Positions 25,483 through 28,221 of a stretch of 64,000 nucleotides of DNA are shown one piece after another. A program made the position numbers and the translations under genes. How positions within the stretch are numbered: position 1 is the stretch's first letter; every line of letters starts with the position of its first letter. This DNA comes from the human T2T-CHM13v2.0 reference genome, Homo sapiens. The notes beneath the pieces were generated by a model that made no database searches, had not been told where the DNA came from, and saw only the letters and a program-made list of their open reading frames with translations. Location of the stretch: NCBI RefSeq assembly GCF_009914755.1, contig NC_060931.1. One strand, 5' to 3'.

Positions 25483-26484
25483 TATGTGTATTTTTAGTAC
25501 TAGTCTATATTCTGTATTTTTCTGAATTATTTATGAGTAAATTGAAGATACCATGCCTATTTTTCTCTACTTCACTGGTATTTCCTAAGAACAATGATAT
25601 TTTCTTACTTAACCACAGTATAACTATACTGCGATATAAAAATAATTTATGGGTGAAACAAAACACATTGTCACATCTTCTTATTTAGGACATTACACAT
25701 TGGTACACTATTTTTGAATCAGTAGTCCATATTCAAATATATCTATGCCTCAATGATCTCCTTCATAGCAATGGAGCACAGTGGTGTGATCACAGCTCGT
25801 TGCAACCTCCATCTCCCAGGTTCAAACAATCCTTCCACCTAAGATTTCCATCTCTCTGGTTTTTCTTGAGCCTGGAAGAATTTCTCAGCCTTTTTTTTCT
25901 TTTTAAACCTTCCTTGACTTTGCAATTTTAAAGAGAGCAGGGCAGTTACTTTGAAGAATGTCCTTCAAGACAGCTTTGTCTGATCTTTCCTCATTAGATT
26001 TGTGTTATACATTTTGGTATCAATATCATGGAAATGACGTTGTGTCATTATCAGTGCAAAACGTAAGGAGTAACATGATGTTGGTTTGTTCCTAAAACAT
26101 TGATGTTAGTTTTGATCACTCAGTCAGGGCGGTGTTTACAGGTTTCTCTGCTGTAGAGTAATTATTTATCTCTCTGTCAGAAATAAGTAATTTGATAATA
26201 TGAGGCTGTGAAAATATCCTGATTTTCTGCAGCAGGATAATGTTGAATCCCATCAACATTTACTTATTTTAACATCTTGATTTTTAACTCAATCACTCCT
26301 ACTGCATTTATTAATATTCTGTTGTATGAAGGGTATTCATTCTCTCCTTTTTACTTATATCTGTCTGGTCTCATGGATTCTAATTTTATTACCTTGGTTA
26401 TAATTCATTACTATCATTATTTCTTTTGATCTACAACTTATCCCAAAGTTAGCTGGGATAATCCTCTTGAAACTGTCTTCTTCT

Positions 26485-27420
26485 TCTTTTTTTTTTTTAA
26501 TCTTCAAATTGTATTGCATTTTTACTAGCTCTATTAACTGTTTCCTGTTGTTAAATATGTTTTCATGAGTGCCCATTGGTACATTGAATTGTGATGTATA
26601 GGAGATCCCTCATTAAATTTCAACCTTTTGCTCCAAGGTGCCCAATCAGAATTATCTTGACTTGATAAGAAATTTTCTGCAGTAGAAAATAATTTACAGG
26701 TGAAACAGAACACATCGTCACATCTTCTTAAACACACTAACCCTCTCTCTTGCCTTTCACCATTTGTTAGCTTTTACTGGAGTAGTTTGTGCAAAAGTGC
26801 CTATTTTTATCTTTAGGATAACTGTTTTCTACGACATGGGAGGAGGACCTTATTGTATTAATTAATGTTTTAATAGCACAACTCTAGTGTATGGGCCTTG
26901 GGTCTGTGTCATCCATCACAAACTTTTGATTTTCAGTAACTTTTCACTTTCACTCACTGTAAGACTTTGTAGATCTTTATTCTCTATACGTTCTATGTTT
27001 TCATTTCGAAAATATTAACAGGATTTTTTTGGGGTTCATCTATGCATTTGTAAATATCCAAAGATGATATAATTTTCTCCAAGATTTCCATCCCAGATAT
27101 ACTAGAAAAAGTGGAAGAAGAGTCCAGACCTGCTTATATAAATTTGTGATGATAATTTCTCTGTTGCTTTTCATTTTCCTCTTGATGAATTTTTCTAACC
27201 CTTTTTGCATGTATCTGGAATCCTTTTTTCCATAGCCTATATTGTGGCTTTGTCATGGTAGTTGTTTTATTTATTATTTAGATGCATTCTGGAAAAGCCT
27301 GCTGAAGACACCTAAGAACCAGTATTTGTTGGAGACTGTGCTCCCTAGGAAGCCTTTCTCAGCTCCTGTCACTGCTTCTCAGCCTTTCTATTCCTCAGTG
27401 GGGACAAGAGCTGTGGTCCA
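26485..27420 (-). pseudogene. PolyA-tailed retrocopy of a hAT (Tip100-type) transposase N-terminus with TTF zinc finger
   Basis: Minus strand: ~160 nt leader, accATG at 27256, then MTKPQYRLWKKGFQIHAKRVRKIHQEENEKQQRNYHHKF...YPKDKNRHF...KLTNGERQERGLVCLRRCDDVFCFTCKLFS...DW...KRLKFNEGSPIHHNSMYQW, then A tail (T run ~26487-26498); interrupts the L1MC. Confidence 0.7.
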
Positions 27421-28221
27421 TGACTCTACTGAGGCACCTTTTTATTAAACACTTTCTTACTTTCTGGTGGAATGAGGTGTTTCAGACTTATCTTGAACTT
27501 TCTCTATCCCAGGCCTGGAGTCCACCATTTTCCCTAGGAATCCTGGTTTCTTTTAGTGGAGAAGAGTATTTAGATACCAAGATCTACATGTTAAGTGTGT
27601 TCATTACTATACATGTATCGTTGCTGCTAGTGCCTTTTGGCAAAGAGAGCTAGGGAATCTTGACCTGTATATCTTTCTACATCTACATCTATACACTATT
27701 TCTATATCTAAATAAAAAACTATGAGTTCCAATTCCAATTCAATATCATGGGGCACCTTTTTGTTCTCCCATTTCCATAGTTTTATTCCTTTTTCACTCT
27801 TCCAAACAGTGAGAAACCAGAATCCTATTAGCCTTTATATTTTTACTAATTTTTCCAAGTCTAGAACACACATAACTTAGCTTCAGAATTATTAACCTAT
27901 ACCTCTGAGAAAAGCAAACCTACTTGTAAGAACCTTGTTCACAGTTTTATTTGTTTTTAGGTAAAATTTATGTACAGTAAGCTGCATAAAACCTAAGTCT
28001 ACCAATTGATGAGTTTTGACAAATGCAAACATACATGCAATCTGCATCCTAACAAAATAAAGAAGATTTTTATCACTTTCCATCATTTTCTGTCAAGTCC
28101 CCTCAGGCCCTTGTCCAGTCAAGTCTCACACCCAACACATACAGGCAAGTGACATTCTGATTTTTTCCCACCATCTATTAGTTTTGTCTGATATGAAATT
28201 TAGTATGTTTAAATGGAATCA

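What the first reader, a model, noticed from the sequence alone, without database searches (positions are those of the whole stretch)
26485..27420. A DNA-transposase mRNA retrocopy: hAT/Tip100 TTF zinc-finger N-terminus with leader and polyA, inside an L1MC
Seen: a ~930 bp insert interrupts the L1MC. On the minus strand it has a GC-richer ~160 nt leader, a Kozak-like accATG (27256), a basic/acidic N-terminus (GFQIHAKRVRKIHQEENEKQQ..HKF), then GPPP, YPKDKNRHF, KLTNGE..R.LV...DDVFCFTCKLFS...DW...LK..E.S..H.....W, GKTVN, and an A tail shortly after AATACA. No terminal inverted repeats or 8-bp TSD are visible. Established: this motif set is the ZnF_TTF region of Tip100-type hAT transposases and ZMYM1/ZMYM5-like derivatives. 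Inference: L1 copied a transcript of either an active hAT element or a domesticated (possibly since lost) transposase gene, truncated before the DDE domain. I do not recognise it as any human protein-coding gene.
Basis: partly seen in the sequence, partly recalled or inferred. Interest (0 to 1): 0.75.

Follow-up and report, generated by a model that had tools for sequence, protein, structure and literature searches.

The report
Ancient retrocopy of a truncated transposase transcript
A roughly 930-base decayed copy of the front end of a "cut-and-paste" (hAT) transposase message was pasted into an old L1 repeat by the L1 copy-and-paste machinery; it is a tidy example of a known but uncommon kind of event, not a new kind of element.

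Summary
On the minus strand, window 27420..26487 is a discrete insert in an old L1 3' region. Three other L1 copies run straight across the site.

The insert carries:
- a GC-richer leader,
- a decayed reading frame whose 79-codon open stretch (26773..26534) matches the N-terminal zinc-finger region of hAT transposases (46 library proteins at E<=1e-3; full-length hits carry DUF4371 and Dimer_Tnp_hAT),
- AATACA and then a 12-A run.

No catalytic part lies anywhere in the 64 kb, and there are no terminal inverted repeats.

The human genome holds one other detectable copy, on chr3 (69-72% identical). By my reading of the sequences and of the chr3 duplication it starts at the same base. It ends at the same A-rich site, has different flanks, and is bracketed by a 15-bp AAAA-starting target-site duplication (12/15; 22 of 5000 random pairs reach this).

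No parent, spliced or not, was found. The event resembles the published "retro-DNAs" and processed pseudogenes. I rate it a new member of a known kind, of moderate-low interest.

The parts
26487..27420 (-). The whole insert: a retrocopy of an about 0.9-kb RNA (leader, decayed N-terminal hAT-type ORF, A tail)
   Evidence: L1 copies L034-L036 are contiguous across the site. The first base is the one shared with the chr3 copy (tggaccacag against tgggcacaac, my reading). The local alignment runs 24 nt further, to 27444, so the 5' border is uncertain by up to 24 nt.
27257..27420 (-). Non-coding leader (5' UTR-like), GC 0.45
   Evidence: Stops in all three frames. GC. Partly alignable to the chr3 leader, e.g. 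agggagcacagtctc.
27254..27256 (-). First ATG of the decayed ORF in this copy (accATGa)
   Evidence: It aligns with AGG on chr3.
27275..27277 (-). ATA, in frame, aligned with the gccATGg of the chr3 copy: a possible original start codon
   Evidence: inspection.
26503..27256 (-). Decayed ORF (about 250 codons) broken by stops and frameshifts
   Evidence: Three-frame translations. Alignment to chr3.
26534..26773 (-). 79-codon open stretch: Cys/His zinc-finger region typical of the N-terminus of TTF-finger hAT transposases
   Evidence: C23, C26 and H60 are kept; the first His of HE.S..H is N.
26510..26515 (-). AATACA, a possible variant polyadenylation signal 11 nt before the A run; conserved in the chr3 copy
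   Evidence: That AAUACA is a variant signal is recalled, not tested.
26487..26498 (-). 12-A run: the poly(A) remnant, of which the last about 4 A may be the L1 target's AAAA
   Evidence: Counting on from the finger alignment, it sits where P0011 reads KKEKEHW.
27421..27620 (-). 5' flank: old L1 3'-UTR-type repeat
   Evidence: Aligned to L034, L035 and L036 up to 27445. 27444..27421 is assignable only loosely.
26334..26486 (-). 3' flank: the same L1 repeat resumes (aaaagaagaagaagacag, like AAAAGGACATAGAAGTCAG in L034)
25639..25683 (-). Secondary 45-nt copy (41/45) of the finger core, lying in an extra stretch of about 54 nt in the L1

Best explanation
The insert is an ancient L1-mediated retrocopy (processed pseudogene) of one discrete polyadenylated RNA of about 0.9 kb. 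That RNA was the 5' leader plus roughly the first 250 codons of a hAT-superfamily transposase-type gene. It ended just past the N-terminal zinc-finger (DNA-binding) region, at an A-rich spot where full-length relatives go on into the catalytic domain.

Proposed steps, each marked shown or inferred:
1. A coding-competent hAT element or hAT-derived gene was transcribed in the germ line from a fixed start site. This is inferred from my reading that two copies share the same 5' end.
2. The RNA was cut and polyadenylated early, after AAUACA, or L1 reverse transcriptase primed on the internal A-rich KKEKE-coding tract. This is inferred.
3. L1 endonuclease nicked YY|AAAA targets and reverse-transcribed the RNA in place, at least twice: into an L1 3' UTR on chr7 and into chr3. 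The target sites, the A tails and the 15-bp duplication on chr3 are shown.
4. Both copies then decayed neutrally. This is shown by K2P 0.35 between the copies with no codon-position bias.

The copy has no promoter, no catalytic domain and many stops. It most likely does nothing today.
For: **Contiguous L1 flanks.** L034, L035 and L036 (3 of the 4 copies in the alignment) span the site with 63-96 bp where the window has about 1,000 bp.

**No hAT-type ends.** None of the 25 listed inverted pairs (of 39) joins the two ends.

**A second copy on chr3.**
- It is the only other DNA match in two reciprocal genome searches: 3 of 3 and 2 of 2 candidates scored.
- It is colinear from the leader to the A-rich end, and its flanks are unrelated.
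- A 15-bp duplication starting AAAA brackets it. 12 of 15 positions match, 8 of them in an exact run, and only 22 of 5000 random pairs do as well.

**Target sites.** TC|AAAA on chr7, read from the empty L1 copies, and CT|AAAA on chr3.

**The finger region is hAT-type.**
- 46 library hits at E<=1e-3.
- Of 9 hits scanned with Pfam:
  - P0011 carries DUF4371 and Dimer_Tnp_hAT.
  - P0042 carries Dimer_Tnp_hAT.
  - P0008 and P0009 carry DUF4371 over the cut-off, and P0015 carries it under the cut-off.

**No catalytic part.**
- 44 of 46 library proteins hit the window, all only inside 26505-26767.
- 22 of the 46 hit the chr3 locus, all inside L005 5070-5639, i.e. the finger region and the tail.
- The ZMYM1-like ORF gives no DUF4371 match either.

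**The truncation point recurs.** A third copy, the unnamed-contig proteins P0001 and P0003, also runs into the same K-rich site. My reading of its 29-aa tail shows no transposase-like continuation, though it was never compared with the catalytic part.

**Neutral decay.** Differences by codon position are 29/85, 26/85 and 21/84, and 20/69, 25/70 and 16/68.

**Source probably intact.** By inspection, each stop or frameshift I traced is private to one copy.
Against: - The chr7 copy has no detectable target-site duplication: best 9/15, reached by 1995 of 5000 random pairs.
- The A run is short (12, perhaps only 8 of the insert's own). It also coincides with a Lys/Glu-rich coding spot of full-length relatives, so it is not proof of a poly(A) tail by itself.
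- No parent locus was found, so intron loss cannot be shown.
- My formal test for shared lesions had no power. The antisense strand also gave 0, and so did 98 of 200 column shuffles. 'Source was intact' therefore rests on inspection alone.
- Genome searches here use a loose first look and can miss relatives around 65% identity. The search ran with a stricter first look and may miss weak matches.
- No Dfam or Repbase comparison was possible.
- The two ATGs do not align with each other.
- The shared first base rests on my reading. The local alignment runs 24 nt further, into what on chr3 I read as the duplication.
Confidence: 0.72

Rival explanations
1. This is a retro-DNA in the sense of Tang and Liang. 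The RNA was not a transposase message but a passive transcript, for example part of a host-gene intron or a read-through, of an already dead hAT copy. L1 happened to copy it.
For: Such events are documented in primates: 748 unique events lacking TIRs, with polyA, TSDs and the TT/AAAA motif (PMC11195612; abstract and passages read). The retroposition hallmarks are the same here.
Against: By my reading, two copies share the same 5' end at a leader upstream of the start codon, and both share the 3' end. That fits a defined transcript better than a random piece of an intron. I found no lesion shared by both copies (inspection), but the formal test had no power. The published retro-DNAs average 209 bp and are lineage-specific. 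This one is about 930 bp and far older.
Confidence: 0.15
2. This is a DNA-level fragment of a catalogued hAT DNA transposon (a Zaphod/Arthur/ORSL-type consensus), inserted or rearranged as DNA. On this view the A run is simply internal coding sequence.
For: The A run lies exactly where full-length relatives encode KKEKEHW. The chr7 copy has no TSD. No Dfam search could be run. The human genome holds many decayed hAT C-terminal fossils: 48 matches to P0011, mostly to its positions 413-616.
Against: There are no TIRs. Both copies end at the same A-rich site, and by my reading start at the same base, with unrelated flanks. The chr3 copy has a 15-bp duplication, not an 8-bp one. No catalytic remnant lies beside either copy. 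17 hAT fossil loci, each with 1.5 kb either side, show no similarity to the insert (best E 0.081).
Confidence: 0.08
3. One of the two human copies is the parent of the other. For example, the chr3 locus was the transcribed source gene and chr7 is its retrocopy.
For: Only two copies are detectable. The chr3 copy keeps a strong gccATGg, longer open stretches and a GC 0.63 leader.
Against: The chr3 copy itself has an A-rich end followed by a 15-bp duplication of its 5' flank, so it is itself an insertion. A promoterless retrocopy would have to be transcribed from exactly its first base.
Confidence: 0.07

Closest known systems
Retro-DNAs (Tang and Liang, F1000Res 2024, PMC11195612; abstract and passages read)
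   Same: DNA-transposon-derived sequence without TIRs, with an A tail, an L1-type target (YY|AAAA) and, on chr3, a long TSD. It was mobilised by L1 target-primed reverse transcription.
   Different: The published set is primate-lineage-specific, averages 209 bp and is thought to come from passively transcribed dead copies. This unit is about 930 bp and roughly eutherian-age by divergence (K2P 0.35 between copies). By my reading it starts at a fixed 5' end with a leader and start codon, and it seems to derive from a still-open reading frame.
Ordinary processed pseudogenes of host mRNAs
   Same: A discrete cDNA-like unit with an A tail, a TSD and neutral decay. Two independent copies of one transcript.
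   Different: No parent gene exists in the human genome. The coding part is transposase-type and is truncated at about one third of the length of full-length relatives.
hAT-derived terminal exon on chr13 (taken to be ZMYM5) and the chr1 ORF (taken to be ZMYM1). [quoted passage not shown]
   Same: The same N-terminal architecture (EENEKQ, DP..WP, GP, FPKD, NGE, FCF.CKLF, HE.S..H). The chr13 ORF likewise lacks the catalytic part and stops about 7-10 codons past the equivalent of the A run.
   Different: Only 34-36% amino-acid identity and no DNA-level similarity, so the insert is not a retrocopy of that gene. The chr13 exon is open, spliced (cag|ATGATG) and part of a host gene. Its homology to P0011 runs a few residues beyond the retrocopies' end.
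Autonomous TTF-finger hAT transposons (Tip100/Zaphod-type; names recalled, no library on hand)
   Same: Homologous N-terminal zinc-finger region.
   Different: No TIRs, no 8-bp TSD, no DUF4371/catalytic or dimerisation domain. It moved via RNA, not by excision.

Membership tests
L1-mediated retrocopy / processed pseudogene | A tail at the 3' end, directly abutting the target | tested here: met
   12 A at 26498..26487 next to the resumed L1. On chr3, gaaaaaac comes before the TSD. Caveat: the site is A-rich in relatives too.
L1-mediated retrocopy / processed pseudogene | Target-site duplication of about 7-20 bp | tested here: inconclusive
   chr3 copy: 15 bp, 12/15 matching, 22 of 5000 random pairs as good. 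chr7 copy: none (9/15; 1995 of 5000).
L1-mediated retrocopy / processed pseudogene | Insertion at a TT|AAAA-like endonuclease site | tested here: met
   TC|AAAA, read from empty L1 copies L034 and L036. CT|AAAA on chr3. That these variants are accepted by L1 endonuclease is recalled.
L1-mediated retrocopy / processed pseudogene | Intron loss relative to a parent gene | not testable with these tools
   No parent found in this genome. No other eukaryote genomes on hand.
hAT superfamily transposon (as an element) | Terminal inverted repeats and an 8-bp TSD | tested here: not met
   (no pair joins the ends)..
hAT superfamily transposase (as a protein) | Catalytic core (DUF4371 region) and C-terminal hAT dimerisation domain | tested here: not met
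   Absent from the 64-kb window and the 10-kb chr3 locus. Only the N-terminal region is present, so the insert is derived from a hAT-type gene but is not a whole one.
hAT superfamily transposase (as a protein) | N-terminal region homologous to that of proteins carrying hAT domains | tested here: met
   E 4.6e-6 to 9.1e-6 to P0008, P0009 and P0011 in a 1.8-billion library.
TTF-type zinc finger (SMART ZnF_TTF; name recalled) | Match to the family model; C..C...H....H ligands | not testable with these tools
   Pfam holds no such model, and the 79 aa hit no Pfam family. By alignment, C23, C26 and H60 are kept and the first His is N.
hAT-Tip100 / Zaphod, Arthur, ORSL (Dfam/Repbase) | Colinearity with the family consensus | not testable with these tools
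   No Dfam/Repbase library on hand. 17 human hAT C-terminal fossil loci show no similarity to the insert.
Retrocopy of ZMYM5 or ZMYM1 | High identity to the parent mRNA, including UTRs | tested here: not met
   34-36% and 26% amino-acid identity in the finger only. No significant DNA similarity to the chr13 exon and 8.7 kb downstream of it.

The most novel reading that the evidence does not exclude
The source was not a jumping element. It was a now-lost early-eutherian host gene, or a regular short isoform of an active element, that encoded only the N-terminal zinc-finger DNA-binding module of a hAT transposase, made by early polyadenylation at AAUACA. It would then be a DBD-only product (a candidate transposition repressor or domesticated factor) abundant enough in the germ line to be retrocopied at least twice. 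It would parallel the DBD-only hAT exon that the chr13 gene (taken to be ZMYM5) kept.
Probability: 0.15. Interest if true: 0.6.

Novelty: new member of a known kind. Interest (0 to 1): 0.35.

Why it matters
It adds an old, unusually complete example to the short list of DNA-transposon sequences moved by L1. The example carries a leader, a start codon and the DNA-binding region, and by my reading two copies have identical ends.

It also preserves roughly 250 codons of an otherwise unrecorded hAT-type gene from around the eutherian radiation. The shared truncation point hints that such genes produced short, DNA-binding-only transcripts. Nothing suggests a present function. For genome annotation, both this site and the chr3 site should be labelled as processed pseudogenes of a transposase-type transcript rather than as DNA-transposon insertions.

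Tried and rejected
- **Pfam on six translated pieces**. There were no relevant families, only two chance hits under the cut-off. Pfam has no TTF model.
- **Word-indexed protein search, longer lengths**. Nothing at E<=1e-3.
- **Is the insert part of an L1 subfamily consensus?** Rejected. The chr3 flanks are not L1-homologous to the window flanks, and empty L1 copies exist.
- **Is the chr3 locus a full-length element interrupted by insertions?** Rejected. No catalytic homology in the 4.3 kb downstream of it.
- **Does the tail of P0003 beyond the A tract match the L1 flank?** That would have shown an orthologous junction. It is not supported: best E 0.47 and weak. My by-eye back-translation is therefore dropped.
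- **Dynamic-programming test for disabling lesions shared by both copies**. It had no power: the antisense strand also gave 0, and so did 98 of 200 column shuffles. It is not used as evidence.
- **Frames of the chr3 tail.** In some searches my in-script removal of the chr3 Alu was off by 5 nt. This was corrected, so frames of the chr3 tail quoted here come.
- **'ATG conserved in both copies'.** Rejected by the alignment.
- **Alignment of the short tail to library proteins**. Only weak, frame-ambiguous hits. Placing the A run at KKEKEHW rests on counting on from the finger alignment.
- **Profile search of the genome with alignment A1.** Not accepted by the tool.
- **Supplement of PMC9004415.** Only its file list was seen. 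A genome-wide fossil table that might list this site was not available.

Full report
**1. What is there**

The window is T2T chr7:95,976,001-96,040,000. On the minus strand, 27420..26487 reads as follows.
- A leader with stops in all frames. Its GC is 0.45, against 0.33 for the coding part and 0.32-0.36 for the flanks.
- accATG at 27256.
- A decayed reading frame spread over three phases: MTKPQYRLWKKGFQIHAKRVRKIHQEENEKQQ..., NENIERIENKD..., DDTDPRP..., GPPP, YPKDKNRHF.
- A 79-codon open stretch (26773..26534) with FCFTCKLFS...DW...LKFNEGSPIHH...W.
- AATACA (26515..26510) and a 12-A run (26498..26487).

The finger frame reads TTGNS** and the next frame reads QQETVN.

**2. It is an insert in an L1**

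The flanks belong to a multi-copy repeat (957 and 3,244 first-look candidates, many of them Alu pieces).
- I fetched five related loci and put four of them, L033-L036, into a junction alignment.
- In L034, L035 and L036 the two flanks are contiguous: 63-96 bp where the window has about 1,000 bp.
- L033 matches only the 3' flank near the junction.
- L037 was not aligned, and its flank matches are not colinear.
- In L033 the repeat lies 0.7-2.4 kb downstream of homology to L1 ORF2 residues 700-1091, on the same strand. The flanks are therefore an L1 3'-UTR-type sequence.
- The window itself has no ORF2 homology between 20134 and 43845.
- The name L1MC could not be tested.

The L1 resumes right after the A run as aaaagaagaagaagacag, like AAAAGGACATAGAAGTCAG in L034. 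The target was therefore ...GTC|AAAAGG, and up to 4 of the 12 A may be the target's own.

**3. What the coding part is**

- Pfam has no model for this finger, and the 79 aa hit no family.
- A full HMMER scan of 1.8 billion representatives gave 46 proteins at E<=1e-3.
- Nine of them were scanned with Pfam:
  - P0011 (616 aa) carries DUF4371 and Dimer_Tnp_hAT.
  - P0042 carries Dimer_Tnp_hAT.
  - P0008 and P0009 carry DUF4371 over the cut-off; P0015 carries it under the cut-off.
  - P0002 and P0004 are unrelated multi-stretch hits.
  - P0001 and P0003 have no family.
- In the human genome the 79 aa also hit a 260-aa open frame on chr13 (36% identity, E 3.6e-4; 34% identity, E 3.8e-7 locally).
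- They hit a 769-aa frame on chr1 weakly (E 0.014).
- From their positions I take these frames to be the last exons of ZMYM5 and ZMYM1. No tool named them. PMC3212892 (passages read) states that the C-termini of ZMYM1/5/6 are hAT-derived.
- The match to the chr13 frame reaches back to EENEKQ near the start.
- There is no DNA-level similarity to that exon, so the insert is not its retrocopy.

**4. It is truncated**

- 44 of the 46 library proteins hit the 64-kb window, all only within 26505-26767.
- 22 of the 46 hit the 10-kb chr3 locus, all within L005 5070-5639, i.e. the finger region and the tail.
- No catalytic or dimerisation part is present near either copy.
- P0011 residues 57-131 align to 26767-26552. 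Counting on from there, its KKEKEHW (146-152) falls on about 26507-26487, which is on the A run. The unit therefore ends at an A-rich coding spot where full-length proteins continue.

**5. A second copy settles the mechanism**

- Two reciprocal DNA searches of the genome found one other locus, chr3:46,428,416-46,429,637 (L005 4416-5637). All 3 and all 2 first-look candidates were scored.
- It is 69% identical by BLAST and 72.5% over 721 aligned columns, K2P 0.35.
- It is colinear from the leader (tgggcacaac..., agggagcacagtctc) to gaagttgaaaaaac.
- It carries a later Alu with an 11-bp duplication.
- Its flanks are unrelated to the window's.
- It is bracketed by aaaacgggatgccca / aaaataagatgccca: 12 of 15 matching with 8 in an exact run. 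Only 22 of 5000 random pairs from the locus do as well. Its target reads CT|AAAA.
- The chr7 copy has no such duplication (9/15; 1995 of 5000 random pairs).
- Neither end pairs as an inverted repeat.
- By my reading and of the chr3 duplication, both copies start at the same base: tggaccacag at 27420, tgggcacaac at L005 4416.
- The local alignment runs 24 nt further, to 27444, into what on chr3 is the duplication. The window's 24 nt there align only loosely to L1. The 5' border is therefore uncertain by up to 24 nt.

Taken together: identical ends as I read them, A tails, YY|AAAA targets, a 15-bp duplication and no TIRs. That is the signature of L1 target-primed reverse transcription of one discrete RNA, not of hAT transposition.

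**6. Further copies**

- P0001 and P0003 are short 'proteins' predicted on small unnamed contigs. They are 94% identical to each other where they overlap.
- They are decayed copies of the same unit: 68% and 57% identity to the window translation.
- Their best human match is the chr7 locus (54% identity, E 2.3e-14), with no chr3 hit.
- P0003 also runs through the K-rich site. I read no transposase-like continuation in its 29-aa tail, but that tail was compared only with the L1 copies.
- I could not show that its tail is the L1 flank.

**7. State of the source**

- Differences between the two human copies are even across codon positions, so both decayed neutrally from nearly the same sequence.
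- By inspection, each stop or frameshift I traced is private to one copy:
  - The window's TAA after HHKFI aligns with GAA on chr3.
  - The window has three private 1-nt deletions, a private 4-nt deletion and a private 1-nt insertion.
  - chr3 has private TAAs, an 8-nt tandem duplication and 1-nt indels.
- With the Alu removed correctly, chr3 reads ...HLNSVYSWVQMELVLKQETVDILNGKTIQFEVEKTK* in one phase.
- This suggests an open source. However, my formal test had no power, so I hold this at about 55%.
- The two ATGs do not align. The chr3 gccATGg matches window ATA 27277..27275, and window ATG 27256 matches AGG on chr3.

**8. Age**

K2P 0.35 between the copies gives about 0.17 per copy. That points to roughly the eutherian radiation, on the order of 100 Myr. 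This is an inference from general mammalian neutral rates, not a computed date.

**9. No parent, no source family**

- The leader and coding part hit no separate loci.
- P0011 found 48 human matches under a stricter first look that may miss weak hits.
- Its N-terminal part matched only chr13 (residues 10-157, 41% identity, E 1.7e-21), chr1 (residues 73-190, E 4e-4) and this window (residues 51-134, E 6.8e-7). Dozens of decayed loci matched its C-terminus.
- 17 of those loci, each with 1.5 kb either side, show no similarity to the insert (best E 0.081).

**10. Comparison with what is known**

- L1-mobilised DNA-transposon sequences ('retro-DNAs') are published for primates (PMC11195612; abstract and passages read). 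There are 748 unique events, averaging 209 bp, without TIRs, with polyA, TSDs and TT/AAAA, thought to come from passively transcribed dead copies.
- The present unit works the same way. It differs in being much older, about 930 bp, sharing a 5' end with a second copy (my reading), and probably coming from an open frame.
- Three literature searches turned up no description of this locus or of retrocopies of TTF-finger transposase messages. That covers only the held library.

**Verdict**

The insert is a new member of a known kind, and I score interest at 0.35.

Noticed in passing
window 25630-25683 (minus strand): An extra stretch of about 54 nt inside the L1 3' region, absent from 3 of 3 other L1 copies aligned. 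45 nt of it are 41/45 identical to the finger core of the retrocopy 1,047 bp upstream (26730-26686). It looks like a templated repair patch copied from the neighbour after the insertion.
   Followed up: partly
window 25772-25843: A 72-nt internal piece of an Alu, also extra relative to the other L1 copies and about 90 nt from the 45-nt patch. Possibly part of the same filler-DNA event.
   Followed up: no
window 27421-27460 (minus strand): The 24 nt just 5' of the insert (taaaaaggtgcctcagta...) align best to the L1 16-mer that the window already has immediately upstream (gtaagaaagtgtttaa). This suggests a small tandem duplication at the junction. The assignment is loose.
   Followed up: partly
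L005 5251-5576 (chr3:46,429,251-46,429,576): An Alu inserted into the chr3 copy of the unit, with a perfect 11-bp target-site duplication ggaactagttt.
   Followed up: yes
L040 / L007 (chr13:19,020,696-19,021,475, minus strand): The hAT-derived open frame that I take to be the last ZMYM5 exon begins at a splice acceptor placed right on the presumed transposase start (cag|ATGATG). It ends about 7-10 codons past the spot where the two retrocopies end. There is no transposase homology in the 8.7 kb downstream.
   Followed up: partly
proteins P0001 and P0003 (public protein library): Two 'proteins' in the library are chance open frames across decayed copies of this same unit on small unnamed contigs, so they are spurious gene predictions.
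   Followed up: partly
genome-wide, e.g. L050 (chr2:55.12 Mb) and L051 (chr5:73.25 Mb): Dozens of decayed matches to the C-terminal dimerisation region of a TTF-finger hAT transposase. Matches to its N-terminal part were seen only at chr13, chr1 and this window, under a stricter first look.
   Followed up: partly
L005 about 3990-4273 (chr3): Sequence that I recognise from memory as an L1 3' end lies about 125 bp upstream of the chr3 copy and is itself interrupted by an Alu (3676-3981). Not tested with a tool beyond the Alu matches.
   Followed up: no
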